Source: a virus
Taxonomy: Duplodnaviria; Heunggongvirae; Uroviricota; Caudoviricetes
DNA length: 17,464 nt
Virus record (IMG/VR): IMGVR_UViG_2778261165_000010
Strand: one strand, 5' to 3'
Shown: one piece after another, positions 1 to 6,943 of the stretch
Position numbering within the stretch: position 1 is the stretch's first letter
Layout of the letters: each line of letters begins with the position of its first letter
Made by a program: the position numbers and the translations under genes
The notes under the pieces: model-generated
What the model saw: the letters and a program-made list of their open reading frames with translations, nothing else
The model's database searches: none
What the model was told of the DNA's origin: nothing

Positions 1-19
1 GCTGGGAAGGCTGGGTCAT
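1..19 (-). CDS. 5' end of the next tail gene downstream of the tape measure (partial, runs off window)
   Basis: ATG at 19..17 on the minus strand preceded by GGAGGG; only 6 codons (MTQPSQ) are visible. The short Shine-Dalgarno spacing makes this uncertain. Confidence 0.3.
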
Positions 20-124
20 ATCCCTCCGGCAGAAGCAGAAAAAGCTTATTATGCTTCCATCAGAAACGATGATCTGGCAGCCTGAGTTCACAGATAAAAC
101 ACTCTCCAGGAAAACCGGGGCGGT

Positions 125-1963
125 TCACTGTCTGAGTTCAATTCCTTCCTGTTGTCGCTTGTTGTAATCGTTTATTGATGAATTTAGTACGTCCTGAGCA
201 ATTTTTTCTGCTTGAAGTACGCCCAATTGCTGCTTTAATCGTGCCAGCCTTTTATTTTGAGCTCCGCCATCTCCAATGCCACCTAACCCGAAAACTCCGG
301 GTCGGGTATTTTTTTCTATTTCATCAATTTGACGGAGAACATCTGAGATTTTTTGATCAAGGGAGGCCTCACGGCCAATATCCAGCATGGAATCCCATGC
401 CCATTTTGCGGAGTCTGCGACAGCTTTCCATGCAGTCTCAAGATAACCAAGATTTTCTTTAATCTGGTTGGTGCGCTGGATCATTGAGGATGAGTATTCT
501 TCTGTCGCAATGCGGGCGGCCTCCTGCTGGTTCCCTTCATCCTGTAGCGCCTTAATCTGGTTATAAGTCGCAAGTGTCAGAAAATGGTACTGATCATTAA
601 GTTTTGATATGGCACTGACAGGATCCTTTGCAATTTCATTGAAGTCATTAACCAGTTGTTCGGTTGATATTCCTGTTACTTCGCTCGTTTTTACTATCGC
701 TGTCGTCACTTGCTCCAGCGAACTGCTCGCTACCTTTCCCGAACGCACAAGCTGATTTAATACTGCCGCCGCAGCACCAGTTGTCGAATCAGCCGCATTC
801 CCGGCACGTTGAGCTATATCGCCCAATTGCCCGCTGGTTGTCCCCAACTGATTTCCGGTAAGAATAAGAGATTTATTAAATTCGTCCTGCTCCTGAGAGC
901 CTTTATAGTAAGCCAGTCCTAAGACCCCAACGGCTGCTGCGGCCAGGGTAAAAGGATTAATTAATCCCAGCACATAAGAACCTACACCTTTGATCGCCGG
1001 GCCAATCCCACCGAACATATCTTTTAGCTGGCCGCCCTGCTGCATTAACACCATAAATGGCGACTGACCAGTGGACAACCCAACAACAATATCCGTCATT
1101 TGTGCAGGCAACATGCGCATAGCAAAAGCCGTTTGTTTTGCCGACATTCCGGTTTTGCTTAATTGTGATTGAGTAACCTCAAGCTCACTCCGCATAGCAC
1201 GAAGTTTTCCAGAAAGCTCCTCATACATTTCAGGAGAAAGCATCCCCTTAGCTTTTGCTTCATTGAGCTGTTTCTGTTGTTCTACCAGACGATTAAAAGC
1301 AGTTCCGACAGGATCAAGTTGAGCAATCAGACGTTGCAAAGCAACAACCTGTTCATCATGCGCTTTTGCTGCTTCTCGCTCTGCCTGAGCCTCTCCGGTA
1401 AGCTCTCGCCGTGTTTCCTGTATTTTTCGGCTATAATTCTCAAACTGAGAACCATTTATTTTCCCGGATGCAAACGCAGCATTAAGTTCATCATGCTGTT
1501 GTTCAAGATTTCTTAGCGCCGCAGCCAGAGGGTCGATCTTGTCCAGCATTCTTTGAAAGGCCTGAGCCTGCGCTTCCTGCTGGGCGGCAGCAAGTTTTCC
1601 GGCCTTCTCGGCTTCTCTCTGCGCTTGCGCAACCCCGCTCAATTCCTCTGTGGTTTCATTAAGTTTACGGACAAGAAATTCATATTCTTCTTTATCAATA
1701 AGCCCTTTATCGAAAAATTTCTTTAATTCAGAATAGCGTCGACCGACAGTATCAATTGCGGCACCAACTGGATCAATAGCTGCTTTTAATTTTGCGAGCG
1801 CGTTCTTCTCATCTTCTGTTGCCTTAGTCACTTTCCCTGCGCTATTTGCAGCAGTTTCCCCAGCCTGCGTCATTTTGACTAATGAGGAGGTCAGATTGTC
1901 AGCATTATTTTTCGCTCCAGTGCTATCAATAATTATTGCGAGACGCGAGGTTTGCTCTGCCAT
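125..1963 (-). CDS. tail tape measure protein (612 aa)
   Basis: Long ORF with ATG at 1963 preceded by AGGAG. Extended Ala/Gln/Glu-rich coiled-coil repeats (e.g. [24 protein letters not shown]), a hydrophobic Gly-rich central segment ([22 protein letters not shown]), and a position immediately after the G/GT chaperone pair. Confidence 0.85.
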
Positions 1964-1986
1964 TTATTAAAACTCCTGACAACAAA

Positions 1987-2008
1987 AAACCCACCGCGAA
2001 GTGGGTTT
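1987..2008 (-). terminator. stem-loop with following T-tract in the GT-tape measure spacer (candidate intrinsic terminator or attenuator)
   Basis: On the minus strand: AAACCCAC-TTCGCG-GTGGGTTT (8-bp stem, 6-nt loop) followed by TTTGTT, then the AGGAG ribosome-binding site of the tape measure gene. Confidence 0.5.
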
Positions 2009-2128
2009 CAGGCGACATAATAGTAGATATAGCGATTACGAGGCCACGCAATGCTTTTCTCCAGGAGCATCATCGATTTAATTAAAGACACCATCACATC
2101 TCTGTAACAGAGTGTACGTAATTAACAA

Positions 2129-2449
2129 CTACACACACTGCTCCTGAAAATACTGGTCATCCAGTGCAAAGATCACTGCTTCAAATTCATCGCGCTCAAT
2201 CAATACCGGATGAGTGGCTAAATATTCATTTATCTCTGTCAGAGATAAAGGCAAAGGCACCCCAGCCATTCCAGCATAACGTCGGGCACGGGATATTACC
2301 GAATAGGCGTACAACAACTCCTTAAGCACCGGGTCTATTTCTGGTTCCGGTATCGGTGGCAACCTGAGTTTTTCTCGCTTCCATCTTGCCTTTTCCCCCC
2401 TTTCTCCCCCGAACTCCGATAACCACCGCTGGGCAGCTATGGCTTTTTT
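2129..2449 (-). CDS. tail assembly chaperone GT, -1 frameshift extension (T portion)
   Basis: The -1 frame relative to G is open from inside the 3' end of G through to the stop at 2129 (about 105 codons). The 77-aa track ORF 2129..2362 is the distal part of this frame. Arrangement matches lambda G/GT. Confidence 0.7.
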   Translation of the reverse strand, partial: KKAIAAQRWLSEFGGERGEKARWKREKLRLPPIPEPEIDPVLKELLYAYSVISRARRYAGMAGVPLPLSLTEINEYLATHPVLIERDEFEAVIFALDDQYFQEQCV

Positions 2450-2898
2450 ATCGTATCCTGCTTCTGCTGCTCTTTACCCTGGGCGATGCTGGCTGCTTCT
2501 GCAAGGATCTGCCAGTACAACTCTGGATTCTGCTTAAGCAGCGCGATCCCTCGTTCTGCCGTATATTCCAGTGCAACCTCAACACCATTAACCAGTTCAC
2601 CAACCCCTTTCCAGTCTTTCAGCAGATAACGAGCGGCATTATCAATGAGTAAATCATCAACAGAATCCACCTCGGAAACCTTTGAAATATCAAACTCCTT
2701 CGTTCCGACGTGCAAACTGGCATCCATTTTCTCAATGTGGCGACGGATTAATGCATTACGGGAGCGATACTGATCGTTATCGCTGCTTGCCACCAACAGT
2801 TTTAACCCGTCTACAGGTTTTAAGTCCTTCATTGGCGTAAACCAGCGTTCTCCACCAATGATAATTTTCTGATTAAGAATAAACATCCATAACCTCAT
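2437..2898 (-). CDS. tail assembly chaperone G
   Basis: ORF of about 150 aa between the major tail and tape measure genes, ending ..QDTIKKP* with the slippery site at its 3' end. An alternative start at 2886 (MFILNQK..) has a better-placed GAGG ribosome-binding site. Confidence 0.7.
   Translation of the reverse strand: MRLWMFILNQKIIIGGERWFTPMKDLKPVDGLKLLVASSDNDQYRSRNALIRRHIEKMDASLHVGTKEFDISKVSEVDSVDDLLIDNAARYLLKDWKGVGELVNGVEVALEYTAERGIALLKQNPELYWQILAEAASIAQGKEQQKQDTIKKP
2443..2449 (-). promoter_or_regulatory. programmed -1 ribosomal frameshift slippery heptamer A_AAA_AAG
   Basis: Plus strand 2443..2449 is ctttttt, so the minus strand reads A AAA AAG in the G reading frame (..ATA AAA AAG CCA TAG). 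This is 2 codons before the G stop, and the -1 frame is open downstream. Confidence 0.7.
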
Positions 2899-2946: not shown

Positions 2947-3909
2947 TCAACTAATCGCCTCAGCACTGGCTTTTGCGATCACGGCAGCCGGGGAATTTTT
3001 TTTTCTGGTTATCGTAGGTGCTTCATCTGCTGCGGTAATGCTCAATTGAACCTGGATAATGTCGCTATTACCCCCATCAGGCCATTCACCTGACACCTGA
3101 ACCTTCGGGAAACTGAAAGTGTATGCCCCCTCTCCATTCGAAAGCGTGAAGCTGAACGGAACTGTTTCTCCAGTCAGTGTTTTACTCCAGATTTCCCACG
3201 CGGCTTTAGACCATGAAAGCGTCACCGTACCGGACGGTGTAAAAGTAGTCGGAATATTTGCTCCTGCATAAGGCGAGCCAGTCCCGATACAACGCTGTGT
3301 CTGGAGTTTGTTATCGAACTGAATATCAAAACTGTCGATACAAAAACCGTTACCTCCGGCAACACCATTCAGGCTTACTGCTGAAACCTCCTTAAACGAA
3401 TAACGTAGCTTTCCTGCACTATCCACAGGTTCGCCTTTGATAAAATTCGTATCATCGGCCTTTGATTCCCAGTCCAGTCCGGCAAAGGTTACGGTCGCTG
3501 TAATATCGCCGTCGTTAGGGATCTGCATTTTCCATGAGCCAACCTGCGCTCCTCTGACGACAGAGGCAATTCCGACATCGGACGCATAGGTCGCCAGAGA
3601 AAATGTTATTCGCTCATTCCCCATTGTCAGAGAATCGCCTGACCATTCCGCGCCGAAACAGGATGCAAGAAAATCATCATGTTGACCCCAGCGAAATTTG
3701 GTACCAACATCACCGCCGACATCCACAGTGCCAGGCGTCGCCCCCTGAGCCATCCGGGAGCCACCAATCTCATTATTTTCGCCTTTATTCTGGGTGGGTT
3801 TTACTCCCCAGCTTGTGCGTTTTAATAAACTCCAGTCACCACTTGCTGGCGTAGTGCCTGCAACCGTCTCCCGGATAAATGCCGAGATAACCTTTGCACC
3901 TGAACTCAC
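2947..3909 (-). CDS. major tail tube protein (320 aa)
   Basis: GTG start at 3909 with AGGAGG 6 nt upstream. Lies between the tail terminator and the G/GT chaperones. Gly/Thr/Ser-rich beta-type sequence with a C-terminal extension that may be an Ig-like domain. Confidence 0.7.
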   Translation of the reverse strand: MSSGAKVISAFIRETVAGTTPASGDWSLLKRTSWGVKPTQNKGENNEIGGSRMAQGATPGTVDVGGDVGTKFRWGQHDDFLASCFGAEWSGDSLTMGNERITFSLATYASDVGIASVVRGAQVGSWKMQIPNDGDITATVTFAGLDWESKADDTNFIKGEPVDSAGKLRYSFKEVSAVSLNGVAGGNGFCIDSFDIQFDNKLQTQRCIGTGSPYAGANIPTTFTPSGTVTLSWSKAAWEIWSKTLTGETVPFSFTLSNGEGAYTFSFPKVQVSGEWPDGGNSDIIQVQLSITAADEAPTITRKKNSPAAVIAKASAEAIS

Positions 3910-4705: not shown

Positions 4706-5089
4706 TTACGCTCTCCTTAACTGGATAGAGTAAACTGATGCGGAAGGATCTACACTTGCTGTAATTACCTCGTATCGTTGTAACTGCCTTGATACAGGAT
4801 CATAAATCTCAATAATATGGTCGACAGCTGGTTTATCCGTAACCTCGCATACCAGAGCGGTTAATTTAAGGTCACCATGCAAAATATTAATCCCATCAAT
4901 TCTGCCCAGCTTATAACGTGTCAACACGCCTCGCCCGGTATAGATTGCGGTGGATTCGCCGCCAGTTTCCGTCACAGGATCCCAGTGCCGGTGCGTAACG
5001 TAAGAACCAGAAAAATCACTCACGGCGTCCGCTAAATCCTCATCAAAAGCAGCGGCAACCTCTGACTGAATCTCTTCACGAAGCCCCAT
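4706..5089 (-). CDS. head closure / head-tail joining protein (putative)
   Basis: 127-aa ORF whose ATG (5089..5087) overlaps the upstream stop as TAATG. Called by synteny between adaptor and tail completion genes. Confidence 0.45.
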   Translation of the reverse strand: MGLREEIQSEVAAAFDEDLADAVSDFSGSYVTHRHWDPVTETGGESTAIYTGRGVLTRYKLGRIDGINILHGDLKLTALVCEVTDKPAVDHIIEIYDPVSRQLQRYEVITASVDPSASVYSIQLRRA

Positions 5090-5483
5090 TATCCCCCCCT
5101 CACAACCCTGACTTGTGAGCGACTAAGTCCGTACGGTTTCAGCAGTGCTATCGCAAGCTGTAAATCGGGTTCAAGCAATGCAGTGCTGTTTGCTGGCAAC
5201 TCAGAAAATGATTTCGATACACTGACCCCGTCAGCCGACACGGCTTTACTGATAACAACGCCAGAATCATTTTTCTGCTGAAACAACTTACCGAATGAGG
5301 CAATTCTGGCTGCATATGCTCCCGCAAGTTTTACCTCTTCCGGAATACGGGATGGGTTAATTTTCAGGTTGAGCCATTAAGCCAGGCATTAGCCATTAAA
5401 ACAGCTTTATTTTTAGCGTTCTCACTCGTCCAGGCGTTCCCAAACGCATTATCAACGTCATCACAGGTCACGTAAGTGATCAT
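5089..5483 (-). pseudogene. head-tail adaptor/connector gene interrupted by a frameshift
   Basis: ATG at 5483 with AGGAG 6 nt upstream opens a frame (MITYVTCDDVDNAFGNAWTSENAKNKAVLMANAWLNGST) that stops at 5364. A second frame, open from 5376 to 5089, continues (WLNLKINPSRIPEEVKLAGAYAARIASFGK...VRVVRGG). The two overlap by about 12 nt and differ by -1. No slippery heptamer is present. Confidence 0.55.
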
Positions 5484-5705: not shown

Positions 5706-6845
5706 TTAACCAAGAATCAGACAACCATGTGCCGGCTTCACTGATGAAACACCCCATGCCAGTCCAACTTCATAGCGCACCTGGCGATACTGACGATACA
5801 GTGCAATCTGGAACGTAATCCCTGAAATCGGGTCCGTAACATTCATTACATCATCAGCATTATCGCCACCTTCCGGCATTGCCGGAGTACGGGATGCCAG
5901 CAGAAACGCGTTGCGATCAAACGCCATATTTGCCGTAAAGGCCCCAACAACTGTGATGGCAGTATCATCGGCCAGATCCTGACGCAGTCCGGGCGCTGCA
6001 AGAGTAATCAGATTGCTGGTCGCTGCTGCCACAACATACTGATTCGGATCACCAGCGAACGTAACAATCTGACCTGCAGAAATACTCCCCGAACCAGTAT
6101 CAATGGAAATAAGAACATCGCCTTCTTTTTTCTCTCCATTCACGAGATAACCAGTTGCAGCAACCTTTGGCGCTCGTTTCACACCTGCCGAACTGTGAAT
6201 ATTGAATCCCTCCAGACACCCCAACACGCCCTCACGCAGTAGCTGTTCAGTGCCGGATTCATTCACTTTAAACAATACAGACTGTTTTCCGCGCAAATTA
6301 GCAATGGCAGTGGAGCCAAGCACCATCTGCAGATCGGTTGTCGGTGCGCCGTTATCCTCCAGAACCTGACGAGCCAGAGCAGCATCAGAAAGATCATCTT
6401 TAACACCAAACGGCGTTGTCCCTGCGGTTCCCACGGCGCGGGAAGCACCGAAATACAACGCACCAAGATCAGCCTCAACCTCGTTTGCAAGGGCGCGAAA
6501 AGCCTGCTTGAACTGATCAGCCAGAATGGTGTTGTAAGTCCCTGAAGGGCCAAGAGCCAGTTGTTCTTCACCATTCCATTTAACCGGTGCCATTTTGGAT
6601 TTAGTAATTTTTACATCAACAGTGCCAATATTTTGATCACCGGTATTCGGAGCTGACGGCCCCGGTACGATATCTTCGGTTTTCGCCTCAGGCGCAACTG
6701 GCGCGGTTACCGTCTGATCTTTTGCTGCGGCGTCAGCTTTTGCGTTTTTTGCTACCGCAGGGATAAAACCTACCTGCTCACGGGATACAACATCCAGGGC
6801 GGTATAAATAGTCGGGATCAACCCGGTCAGGGTATTTCCAGCCAT
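5706..6845 (-). CDS. major capsid protein
   Basis: ATG at 6845 with AAGGAA ribosome-binding site (MAGNTLTGLIPTIYTAL..). About 380 aa, directly after the scaffold gene and followed by a strong terminator. The track ORF extends to 6938 from a non-ATG start. Confidence 0.8.
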   Translation of the reverse strand: MAGNTLTGLIPTIYTALDVVSREQVGFIPAVAKNAKADAAAKDQTVTAPVAPEAKTEDIVPGPSAPNTGDQNIGTVDVKITKSKMAPVKWNGEEQLALGPSGTYNTILADQFKQAFRALANEVEADLGALYFGASRAVGTAGTTPFGVKDDLSDAALARQVLEDNGAPTTDLQMVLGSTAIANLRGKQSVLFKVNESGTEQLLREGVLGCLEGFNIHSSAGVKRAPKVAATGYLVNGEKKEGDVLISIDTGSGSISAGQIVTFAGDPNQYVVAAATSNLITLAAPGLRQDLADDTAITVVGAFTANMAFDRNAFLLASRTPAMPEGGDNADDVMNVTDPISGITFQIALYRQYRQVRYEVGLAWGVSSVKPAHGCLILG

Positions 6846-6943
6846 AATTAAATATTCCTTAAAAATTTGCGTAATTGTGAATAGATGGAGTAATGAGCTA
6901 TCCAGCCCTGACACCAGCTCCCATCCGGAAGCTGACAAATGTG

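What the first reader, a model, noticed from the sequence alone, without database searches (positions are those of the whole stretch)
2129..2449. Canonical -1 programmed frameshift site for G/GT tail chaperone expression
The heptamer A_AAA_AAG lies two codons before the G stop, and the -1 frame is open for about 105 codons to 2129. This reproduces the conserved G/GT recoding of long-tailed phages, which sets the ratio of G to GT chaperone for tape-measure-directed tail assembly. It is a good internal check that the tail module is lambda-like and probably functional.
Basis: partly seen in the sequence, partly recalled or inferred. Interest (0 to 1): 0.45.

Follow-up and report, generated by a model that had tools for sequence, protein, structure and literature searches.

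The report
Tail chaperone G/GT frameshift site
This is a genuine but ordinary phage "slippery site" that lets ribosomes occasionally shift frame to make a longer tail-assembly chaperone, and it sits in a Rac-like E. coli prophage copy whose tail genes are broken by an insertion element.

Summary
On the minus strand, the heptamer A_AAA_AAG (2449..2443) lies in the phase needed for slippage. It sits at the end of a 149-aa tail assembly chaperone gene (ydaY family, PHROG 313) that reads ATA AAA AAG CCA TAG. The -1 frame stays open for 104 codons to the stop at 2131..2129.

The arrangement lies between the tail tube gene and the tape measure gene. In 95 of 96 related loci the second ORF is in the -1 frame. 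Of those 95, 90 carry a canonical heptamer at the homologous lysine: A_AAA_AAG in 84 and G_GGA_AAG in 6. A_AAG is the only invariant block.

The 27 codons after the slip site precede any start codon, yet they evolve as coding sequence in the -1 frame. I found no downstream RNA structure; a conserved AGGA upstream is a weak candidate stimulator.

This is a new sequence family within the well-known G/GT recoding class. It has no detectable similarity to lambda G/T, and E. coli RefSeq records do not annotate the slippage. K-12 Rac keeps the identical cassette.

"Probably functional" fails for this copy. An IS3-family element truncates the tape measure gene at codon 612 of 1077, and a head-tail gene has a 1-nt deletion.

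The parts
2443..2449 (-). Slippery heptamer A_AAA_AAG, in phase with the G frame (AT[A AAA AAG] CCA TAG)
   Evidence: Read directly. Among the 95 related loci with T in the -1 frame, 84 have this heptamer at the homologous position and 6 have G_GGA_AAG. A_AAG is the only invariant 4-nt block in 32 distinct junction segments.
2437..2886 (-). G gene: tail assembly chaperone, ydaY family, 149 aa from ATG 2886. GAGG lies 6 nt upstream. An alternative ATG at 2898 would give 153 aa. Stop TAG at 2439..2437.
2129..2443 (-). T segment: -1 frame extension of 104 sense codons (AIAAQRW...QEQCV) plus stop TAG 2131..2129. It is reached by re-reading G2443.
   Evidence: PHROG 1189, E 1e-36. The GT fusion matches PHROG 313 profile positions 20-246 of 258 at 174 bits, against 159 bits for G alone. 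Sub-threshold match to Pfam Phage_TAC_18. The first 27 codons show a coding signature in this frame.
2362..2364 (-). TTG, the first possible start codon in the T frame, 27 codons downstream of the slip site. This is the start used by RefSeq for the separate 'hypothetical protein'.
   Evidence: the ORF listing, (ORF 2129..2362). L001 annotation 6639..6872.
2456..2459 (-). [quoted passage not shown]
   Evidence: Sequence. It fits the SD-like criterion of Sharma et al. 2014. CAG GAN is kept in every enterobacterial A_AAA_AAG segment, but this cannot be separated from conservation of the encoded Gln-Asp/Glu.
2947..3909 (-). Tail tube (major tail) gene immediately upstream of G
   Evidence: Pfam Phage_tube_2, E 9e-32. 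PHROG 290.
125..1963 (-). Tape measure gene, truncated after codon 612 of 1077. Its stop TGA (127..125) is supplied by the inserted element.
   Evidence: Pfam TMP_2, E 5e-82. The intact 1077-aa gene is in L001 and L002. Homology to L001 ends at window position 128.
1..127 (.). End of an IS3-family insertion element that interrupts the tape measure gene
   Evidence: 100% matches, annotated as IS3 family transposase. Present in 4084 of 5426 E. coli genomes, up to 49 places per genome.
1986..2009 (-). Terminator-like hairpin plus T-run in the 165-nt gap between the T stop and the tape measure start
   Evidence: An equivalent hairpin ends 18-27 nt (mostly 21-24) before the tape measure ATG in 34 of 38 distinct relatives, against 2.4% in shuffles. 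It is also present in Sakai prophage Sp9.

Best explanation
This is a -1 programmed ribosomal frameshift cassette of the phage tail assembly chaperone (G/GT) class.

Most ribosomes translating the G gene read ...ATA AAA AAG CCA and stop at TAG, giving the 149-aa chaperone. In a small fraction, the tRNA-Lys pair on A_AAA_AAG slips back one base. At the least, the A-site tRNA-Lys moves from AAG to AAA. Those ribosomes continue in the -1 frame for 104 codons and make a 252-aa G-T fusion (...DTIKK-AIAAQRW...).

By analogy with lambda, the shared G part would coat the tape measure protein and the T part would recruit the tube protein. The slip frequency would then fix the G:GT ratio.

Inferred: the actual frameshift frequency, the protein interactions, and the ribosomal rather than transcriptional mechanism. 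No strong stimulator is present, so the frequency is probably low, from tenths of a percent to a few percent.
For: Site and frame:
- Heptamer phase, G stop and 104-codon -1 ORF.

Gene order and family:
- Order is tube, G, T, tape measure.
- G matches PHROG 313 'tail assembly chaperone' (E 4e-46).
- The GT fusion aligns over profile positions 20-246 of 258 with a higher score than G alone, so that family already contains fusion products.

Conservation in relatives:
- T is in the -1 frame in 95 of 96 related loci from Escherichia, Salmonella, Klebsiella, Citrobacter, Erwinia, Mixta, Pseudomonas and Acinetobacter.
- Of those 95, 90 carry a canonical heptamer at the homologous site.
- Two different canonical heptamers are used: A_AAA_AAG and G_GGA_AAG.
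- The heptamer-to-stop distance varies from 0 to 105 nt.
- The junction lysine is invariant in the GT alignment.
- A_AAG is the only invariant block in the junction.
- The homologous pair in Acinetobacter phage TRS1 is annotated in RefSeq as a joined CDS.

Coding signature:
- The 27 codons between the slip site and the first start codon in the T frame keep 17-21 of 27 residues in that frame, against 5-10 of 26 in the other frames, in relatives at about 36% nucleotide divergence.
- Across all the comparisons, differences fall at codon positions 1, 2 and 3 as 152, 163 and 340.

Literature:
Against: - There is no protein-level evidence.
- No significant downstream RNA structure was found (z about 0).
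- No Rfam frameshift element matched.
- In a reporter, unstimulated A_AAA_AAG gave only 0.29% frameshifting (PMC4066793 supplement). That is about tenfold below the roughly 1:30 GT:G ratio of lambda.
- No Pfam family in the local library reaches threshold for G or T.
- This copy sits in a defective prophage, so the cassette need not be under selection in this genome.
Confidence: 0.9

Rival explanations
1. G and T are two separate proteins. T would be initiated independently at TTG 2362 (77 aa), as RefSeq annotates it, and the heptamer would be incidental.
For: RefSeq and GenBank records annotate ydaY and a separate 'hypothetical protein', never a joined CDS. An ORF with a TTG start exists at 2129..2362.
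Against: - The 27 codons upstream of that TTG are conserved as protein in the T frame starting exactly at the slip site.
- The sequence just before the TTG (...AAAAACTCAGG) has no properly spaced Shine-Dalgarno motif.
- The slip site is conserved while the G stop position moves.
- The GT fusion matches PHROG 313 across both parts.
Confidence: 0.04
2. The fusion arises by transcriptional slippage of RNA polymerase on the A run, which would add one A to some mRNAs, rather than by ribosomal slippage.
For: The site contains a homopolymer run of six A. Transcriptional slippage is known in bacteria and phages (PMC5009743).
Against: - Slippage in bacteria is described for runs of about 9 A or T, and this run has only 6.
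- Homologous sites in Acinetobacter and Mixta use G_GGA_AAG, Pseudomonas uses G_GAA_AAG and Erwinia uses C_GCA_AAG. These have only 3-4 A but keep the tRNA-Lys A_AAG motif.
Confidence: 0.03
3. The arrangement is a decayed gene. An originally single GT gene would have been split by a frameshift mutation in a dead prophage, and the heptamer would be a chance match.
For: - This prophage copy does carry inactivating lesions.
- Homopolymer indel variants of this gene exist in databases (P0002, P0027).
- One E. coli strain has an in-frame G-T fusion made by a deletion (P0009).
Against: - The same -1 split occurs in 95 of 96 loci across at least seven genera, including isolated phages.
- G ends at different stops while the slip site stays fixed.
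Confidence: 0.02

Closest known systems
Phage lambda G/GT tail assembly chaperone frameshift (Levin, Hendrix and Casjens 1993; Xu, Hendrix and Duda 2004, 2013, 2014, as cited in PMC5009743)
   Same: - Two overlapping ORFs lie between the major tail gene and the tape measure gene.
- There is a -1 shift on a heptamer ending in A_AAG near the end of G.
- The fusion is roughly twice the length of G.
- Mixta and Acinetobacter members of this family use lambda's own heptamer, G_GGA_AAG.
   Different: - There is no detectable sequence similarity to lambda GT (hhalign probability 0.1%).
- The heptamer here is A_AAA_AAG, 3 nt before the stop. Lambda has G_GGA_AAG, 15 nt before the stop.
- T is 104 aa here, against about 144 aa in lambda.
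- T does not overlap the tape measure gene. It is separated by a gap with a terminator-like hairpin.
ECs1801/ECs1802 of E. coli O157:H7 Sakai prophage Sp9: cluster A_AAA_AAG_25, 'tail assembly chaperone [true]', in Sharma et al. 2014 (PMC4066793)
   Same: - The heptamer A_AAA_AAG sits at the very end of G (AGA AAA AAG TAG).
- The -1 extension is about 102 codons.
- A terminator-like hairpin lies just before the tape measure start.
   Different: It is an unrelated sequence family, with no meaningful BLASTP similarity (the only alignment is 6 residues at E 0.7). G is 124 aa and GT 226 aa, against 149 and 252 aa here.
Acinetobacter phage vB_AbaS_TRS1 genes TRS1_18 and TRS1_19 (RefSeq joined CDS)
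   Same: It is a homologue of this G and T at about 25% identity over GT. The slip lysine is homologous and the frameshift is already annotated as a join.
   Different: It uses G_GGA_AAG, 78 nt before the G stop. Cargo genes lie between T and the tape measure gene.
E. coli dnaX and IS3-family orfAB A_AAA_AAG frameshift cassettes
   Same: The heptamer is identical, and the same tRNA-Lys (mnm5s2U34) slippage chemistry is expected.
   Different: Those cassettes rely on a 3' stem-loop or pseudoknot, and in several cases also an upstream SD-like sequence, to reach 15-50% or more. Here no 3' structure is detectable and no Rfam model matches. Only a short AGGA lies upstream.

Membership tests
Tail assembly chaperone G/GT -1 programmed frameshift class (Xu, Hendrix and Duda 2004) | A pair of ORFs located between the major tail (tube) gene and the tape measure gene | tested here: met
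   Tube 2947..3909, G 2437..2886, T 2129..2443, tape measure 125..1963, all on the minus strand.
Tail assembly chaperone G/GT -1 programmed frameshift class (Xu, Hendrix and Duda 2004) | The second ORF overlaps the end of the first in the -1 frame and has no start codon of its own near the overlap | tested here: met
   The -1 frame is open from 2473 to 2129. The first start codon in that frame is TTG 2362, 27 codons after the slip.
Tail assembly chaperone G/GT -1 programmed frameshift class (Xu, Hendrix and Duda 2004) | An in-phase slippery sequence within the overlap | tested here: met
   A_AAA_AAG at 2449..2443, offset 2 in the G frame.
Tail assembly chaperone G/GT -1 programmed frameshift class (Xu, Hendrix and Duda 2004) | The frame arrangement and slip site are conserved in diverged relatives | tested here: met
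   T is in the -1 frame in 95 of 96 loci, and 90 of those 95 carry a canonical heptamer. A_AAG is invariant. [quoted passage not shown]
Tail assembly chaperone G/GT -1 programmed frameshift class (Xu, Hendrix and Duda 2004) | Both G and GT proteins are made, at a fixed low GT:G ratio, and both are needed for tail assembly | not testable with these tools
   This needs a reporter assay, mass spectrometry and genetics in an intact relative.
Tail assembly chaperone G/GT -1 programmed frameshift class (Xu, Hendrix and Duda 2004) | The G part has the tail assembly chaperone fold (HK97 2ob9-like) | tested here: inconclusive
Lambda gpG / gpT sequence families | Detectable sequence homology to lambda G and T | tested here: not met
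   hhalign of the GT alignment A1 against lambda GT gives probability 0.1% and E 0.41.
PHROG 313 (tail assembly chaperone) and PHROG 1189 | Significant profile match of G, T and the fusion | tested here: met
   G to PHROG 313, E 4e-46. T to PHROG 1189, E 1e-36. GT to PHROG 313, E 8e-51, over profile positions 20-246 of 258.
dnaX-type stimulated A_AAA_AAG cassette (Rfam DnaX frameshifting element) | A 3' stem-loop a few nucleotides after the heptamer, plus an upstream SD-like sequence | tested here: not met
   Downstream folds are no better than shuffles (z 0.3 to 1.1) and are not conserved in Klebsiella, Erwinia or Pseudomonas. No Rfam match was found at the gathering threshold or at E<=1. Only AGGA lies 7 nt upstream (criterion).
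Sp9/ECs1801-type chaperone (Sharma et al. 2014 cluster A_AAA_AAG_25) | Sequence homology to ECs1801/ECs1802 | tested here: not met
   BLASTP of the window GT against the ECs1801 GT gives only a 6-residue match at E 0.7.

The most novel reading that the evidence does not exclude
Chaperone dosage in this group of phages may be controlled at two levels. Besides the frameshift that sets G:GT, a conserved intrinsic-terminator-like hairpin sits about 18-27 nt upstream of the tape measure start codon, behind a variable cargo slot of 38 to 2311 nt. It could uncouple transcription or mRNA stability of G/GT from the tape measure and distal tail genes. It could also insulate the tail genes from cargo genes expressed in the lysogen.

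A further possibility is that the cassette is still decoded in E. coli K-12. There the cryptic prophage Rac keeps the identical heptamer and an unannotated 104-codon T frame after ydaY.
Probability: 0.2. Interest if true: 0.4.

Novelty: new member of a known kind. Interest (0 to 1): 0.15.

Why it matters
The practical value is for annotation. The same 800 bases occur in 1073 of 5426 complete E. coli genomes, including K-12 Rac. In every record inspected they are annotated as "protein YdaY", sometimes with a separate "hypothetical protein", and never as a slippage join. Recognising ydaY as the G gene of a G/GT pair assigns a function to a K-12 y-gene remnant and predicts an unannotated fusion product.

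The family also gives a clean comparative series at one homologous lysine codon: A_AAA_AAG, G_GGA_AAG, G_GAA_AAG and C_GCA_AAG followed by a stop. That series could be used to ask how much P-site re-pairing matters for low-level frameshifting.

It does not change what is known about the mechanism.

Tried and rejected
- Downstream stimulatory RNA structure. Folds of 48-103 nt after the heptamer were no better than shuffles. The one local hairpin (-11.8 kcal/mol) starts directly at the heptamer and is not kept in Klebsiella, Erwinia or Pseudomonas.
- Rfam. Nothing matched at the gathering threshold across the whole window. At E<=1 around the site, the only match was a chance hit to sroH on the terminator hairpin.
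- Homology to lambda G/T and to solved structures by sequence. None was found.
- Pfam. There was no hit for G and only a sub-threshold Phage_TAC_18 match for T, including when every member of the alignments was scanned. The precomputed family PF27119 listed for the homologues is not in the local library, so its name is unknown.
- NCBIfam. No hit.
- Identity with the published A_AAA_AAG chaperone cluster of Sharma et al. 2014. ECs1801 has the same architecture but is unrelated in sequence.
- Literature linking ydaY to frameshifting or to tail chaperones. None was found in the searchable library.
- Locus L009, the one locus where T appeared in the G frame. It has the same junction sequence as the window and an indel further downstream, so it is a damaged or mis-sequenced copy and not a counter-example.

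Full report
**1. Observation**

All genes in the window run on the minus strand. The ORF at 2437..2898 ends ...CAG GAT ACG ATA AAA AAG CCA TAG.
- AAAAAAG occupies 2449..2443, and its first A is the third base of the ATA codon. The motif is therefore in the X_XXY_YYZ phase needed for tandem -1 slippage.
- One sense codon (CCA) separates it from the TAG at 2439..2437.
- The -1 frame is open from 2473 to the TAG at 2131..2129. That is 104 sense codons beyond the slip, starting AIAAQRW.

The site is more than chance would give.
- The 17 long minus-strand ORFs (5206 codons) contain 22 in-phase X_XXW_WWZ heptamers.
- Only this one is followed by a long -1 ORF: 104 codons against at most 33 elsewhere.
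- The median open -1 run from any codon is 8 codons, and only 1.4% of codon positions see 104 or more.

**2. What the genes are**

- The upstream gene (2947..3909) is a tail tube protein: Pfam Phage_tube_2, E 9e-32, and PHROG 290.
- The downstream gene (125..1963) is a tape measure protein: Pfam TMP_2, E 5e-82.
- The G-like ORF matches PHROG 313 "tail assembly chaperone" at E 4e-46.
- The -1 extension matches PHROG 1189 at E 1e-36.
- The conceptual fusion aligns over positions 20-246 of the 258-position PHROG 313 profile, with a higher score than G alone (174 against 159 bits). That family therefore already contains fusion products.
- The likely G start is ATG 2886, with GAGG 6 nt upstream, and homologues align from there. 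ATG 2898 is an alternative.
- The rest of the window is an ordinary siphovirus late region: spanin, ParB-like protein, terminase, portal, scaffold, capsid, connectors and tail terminator.

**3. Where it comes from**

- The 1.1-kb region is 100% identical to prophages in many E. coli genomes and 99.9% identical to Salmonella phage SPF_0923.
- An 801-nt query covering G and T matches 1073 of 5426 complete E. coli genomes.
- RefSeq calls the first ORF "ydaY: protein YdaY". It either ignores the second ORF or calls it a hypothetical protein. No listed record carries a slippage join.
- In K-12 MG1655 the cryptic prophage Rac keeps an N-terminally truncated ydaY (b1366, 119 aa). It has the identical heptamer, an intact but unannotated 104-codon T frame, the same gap, and a tape measure remnant, ynaA.

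**4. Comparative test**

tblastn of the fusion against phage genomes, together with scans of viral and bacterial contigs, gave 96 loci. They come from Escherichia, Salmonella, Klebsiella, Citrobacter, Erwinia, Mixta, Pseudomonas and Acinetobacter.
- In 95 of the 96 loci the T homologue lies in the -1 frame relative to G.
- The exception, L009, has the same junction sequence and an indel further downstream.
- Among the 95, 84 carry A_AAA_AAG at the homologous site.
- Six carry G_GGA_AAG, which is lambda's heptamer: five Acinetobacter loci and one Mixta locus.
- Five carry only N_NNA_AAG: G_GAA_AAG in Pseudomonas, and C_GCA_AAG directly followed by TAA in Erwinia.
- The distance from the site to the G stop ranges from 0 to 105 nt, so the stop is not what is conserved.
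- In a phased comparison of 32 distinct 91-nt junction segments, A_AAG is the only invariant block of more than one base.
- In the protein alignment of six fusions, the junction lysine is invariant.
- The Acinetobacter phage TRS1 homologue is annotated in RefSeq as a joined CDS.

**5. Independent initiation of T is unlikely**

The first start codon in the T frame is TTG 2362, 27 codons after the slip. Those 27 codons nevertheless evolve as protein in the T frame.
- In relatives at about 36% nucleotide divergence from the window, 17-21 of 27 residues are kept in that frame. Only 5-10 of 26 are kept in the other two frames.
- Across all the comparisons, differences fall at codon positions 1, 2 and 3 as 152, 163 and 340.
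- These comparisons are phylogenetically related, so the counts are descriptive rather than a formal test.

**6. Mechanism**

The review by Atkins et al. (PMC5009743) supplies the background.
- A_AAA_AAG is the most shift-prone heptamer in E. coli, and G_GGA_AAG is also highly shift-prone.
- The sole tRNA-Lys pairs more weakly with AAG than with AAA.
- Z_ZZN tetramers such as A_AAG can suffice, as at G_CGA_AAG in IS1222.
- Lambda G:GT is about 30:1.

That fits this family's pattern of an invariant A_AAG with a variable P-site codon.

Transcriptional slippage is unlikely. The run is only six A, whereas slippage is described for about nine. Relatives also keep the site with only three or four A.

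Stimulators appear weak or absent.
- I found no downstream stimulator. Folds are no better than shuffles and are not conserved.
- No Rfam frameshift element matches.
[quoted passage not shown] This is within the 6-17 nt window and motif list used by Sharma et al. 2014.
- AGGA is kept in every enterobacterial A_AAA_AAG member. Because it encodes a conserved Gln-Asp/Glu, this remains only a candidate.

Sharma et al. measured 0.29% frameshifting for unstimulated A_AAA_AAG, 4.3% with IS911 stimulators and 39% with the IS3 pseudoknot. The values for G_GGA_AAG were nearly identical. I therefore expect a low frequency here, from tenths of a percent to a few percent. This is an inference.

**7. Comparison with known systems**

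- Function and architecture match the lambda G/GT class, but membership of the lambda G and T sequence families fails (hhalign probability 0.1%).
- No solved structure matches by sequence.
- An AlphaFold2 model of G is of low confidence (pLDDT 63.5).
- Sharma et al. list a prophage cluster, A_AAA_AAG_25 (ECs1801, "tail assembly chaperone [true]").
- I fetched it from Sakai prophage Sp9. It has AGA AAA AAG TAG and a 102-codon -1 extension, but it is unrelated in sequence to this GT.
- I found no paper linking ydaY to a frameshift or to a tail chaperone.

The finding is therefore a new sequence family, unannotated in E. coli records, within a well-known kind.

**8. "Probably functional" is not supported for this copy**

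- Homology to the intact prophage in strain SLK172 stops at window position 128.
- Bases 1..127 are the end of a multi-copy IS3-family element. From memory, the terminal sequence resembles IS629/IS1203; this was not tested.
- The element truncates the tape measure gene at codon 612 of 1077 and supplies its stop codon.
- The 131-aa gene at 5089..5483 has a 1-nt deletion near position 5372 relative to phage SPF_0923. RefSeq marks it "frameshifted" in SLK172.
- Database variants show the same decay elsewhere. They include N-terminal chimeras with ParB-like or terminase fragments, and one in-frame G-T fusion made by a deletion.

**9. Side observation**

- G/GT and the tape measure gene are separated by 165 nt containing a terminator-like hairpin at 2009..1986.
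- Across relatives this gap ranges from 38 to 2311 nt and often holds extra ORFs.
- A GC-rich hairpin plus T-run ends 18-27 nt (mostly 21-24) before the tape measure ATG in 34 of 38 distinct sequences. The rate in shuffles is 2.4%. The stems differ in sequence, with 25 distinct hairpin sequences in all.
- The same element precedes the tape measure gene of Sakai Sp9, whose chaperone genes are unrelated.
- It probably travels with the TMP_2-type tape measure gene. It may insulate cargo genes or tune tail gene dosage. This was not pursued further.

**10. Verdict**

This is a real, conserved and textbook-type recoding site. The added inference about module integrity is wrong for this copy. Interest is low, mainly as a correction to annotation.

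Noticed in passing
window 1..127, and the tape measure gene at 125..1963 (-): The window begins inside the end of a multi-copy IS3-family insertion element. The element interrupts the tape measure gene at codon 612 of 1077 and supplies its TGA stop. The tail module of this prophage copy is therefore broken.
   Followed up: yes
window about 5372, within 5089..5483 (-): There is a 1-nt deletion (GGCTTCAAC becomes GGCTCAAC) in a 131-aa head-tail gene relative to Salmonella phage SPF_0923. The same lesion is flagged 'protein singed, frameshifted' in E. coli SLK172.
   Followed up: yes
window 1986..2009 (-); loci L001-L095 and L098: A terminator-like hairpin plus T-run ends about 18-27 nt before the tape measure start codon in 34 of 38 distinct relatives, with differing stem sequences. 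The gap between the T stop and the tape measure start varies from 38 to 2311 nt and often holds cargo ORFs. The hairpin is also present in Sakai Sp9, whose chaperone genes are unrelated.
   Followed up: partly
window about 2008..2094 (-): A 28-codon ORF (MVSLIKSMMLLEKSIAWPRNRYIYYYVA) fills most of the gap between the T stop and the tape measure start, and it ends at the foot of the terminator-like hairpin. It could be a tiny cargo gene or could mean nothing. Its conservation and ribosome binding site were not examined.
   Followed up: no
window 2996..3004 (-), in the tail tube gene: There is a run of nine A (ACC AGA AAA AAA AAT) 48 nt before the tube gene stop. That length is at the threshold reported for transcriptional slippage. 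The alternative frames give only short tails (11 and 4 residues), so no extra domain can be appended.
   Followed up: partly
L097 (E. coli K-12 MG1655, 1425621..1426289): The cryptic prophage Rac keeps the identical A_AAA_AAG and an intact 104-codon -1 frame after ydaY (b1366). The -1 frame is not annotated in the K-12 record, and ynaA downstream is a tape measure remnant.
   Followed up: partly
proteins P0009, P0013, P0016, P0043: Database relatives include one E. coli protein in which a deletion fuses G to T in frame (…ILAEAGYDKKAIAAQRW…). There are also several chimeras of the G C-terminus with ParB-like or other phage N-termini. These are snapshots of prophage decay like that in Rac.
   Followed up: partly
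L004 (Erwinia phage Gungnir39), and L005, L006, L091, L092 (Pseudomonas): These family members lack a canonical heptamer at the homologous site. Erwinia has C_GCA_AAG directly followed by TAA, and Pseudomonas has G_GAA_AAG. This suggests single tRNA-Lys slippage, helped in Erwinia by the adjacent stop codon.
   Followed up: partly
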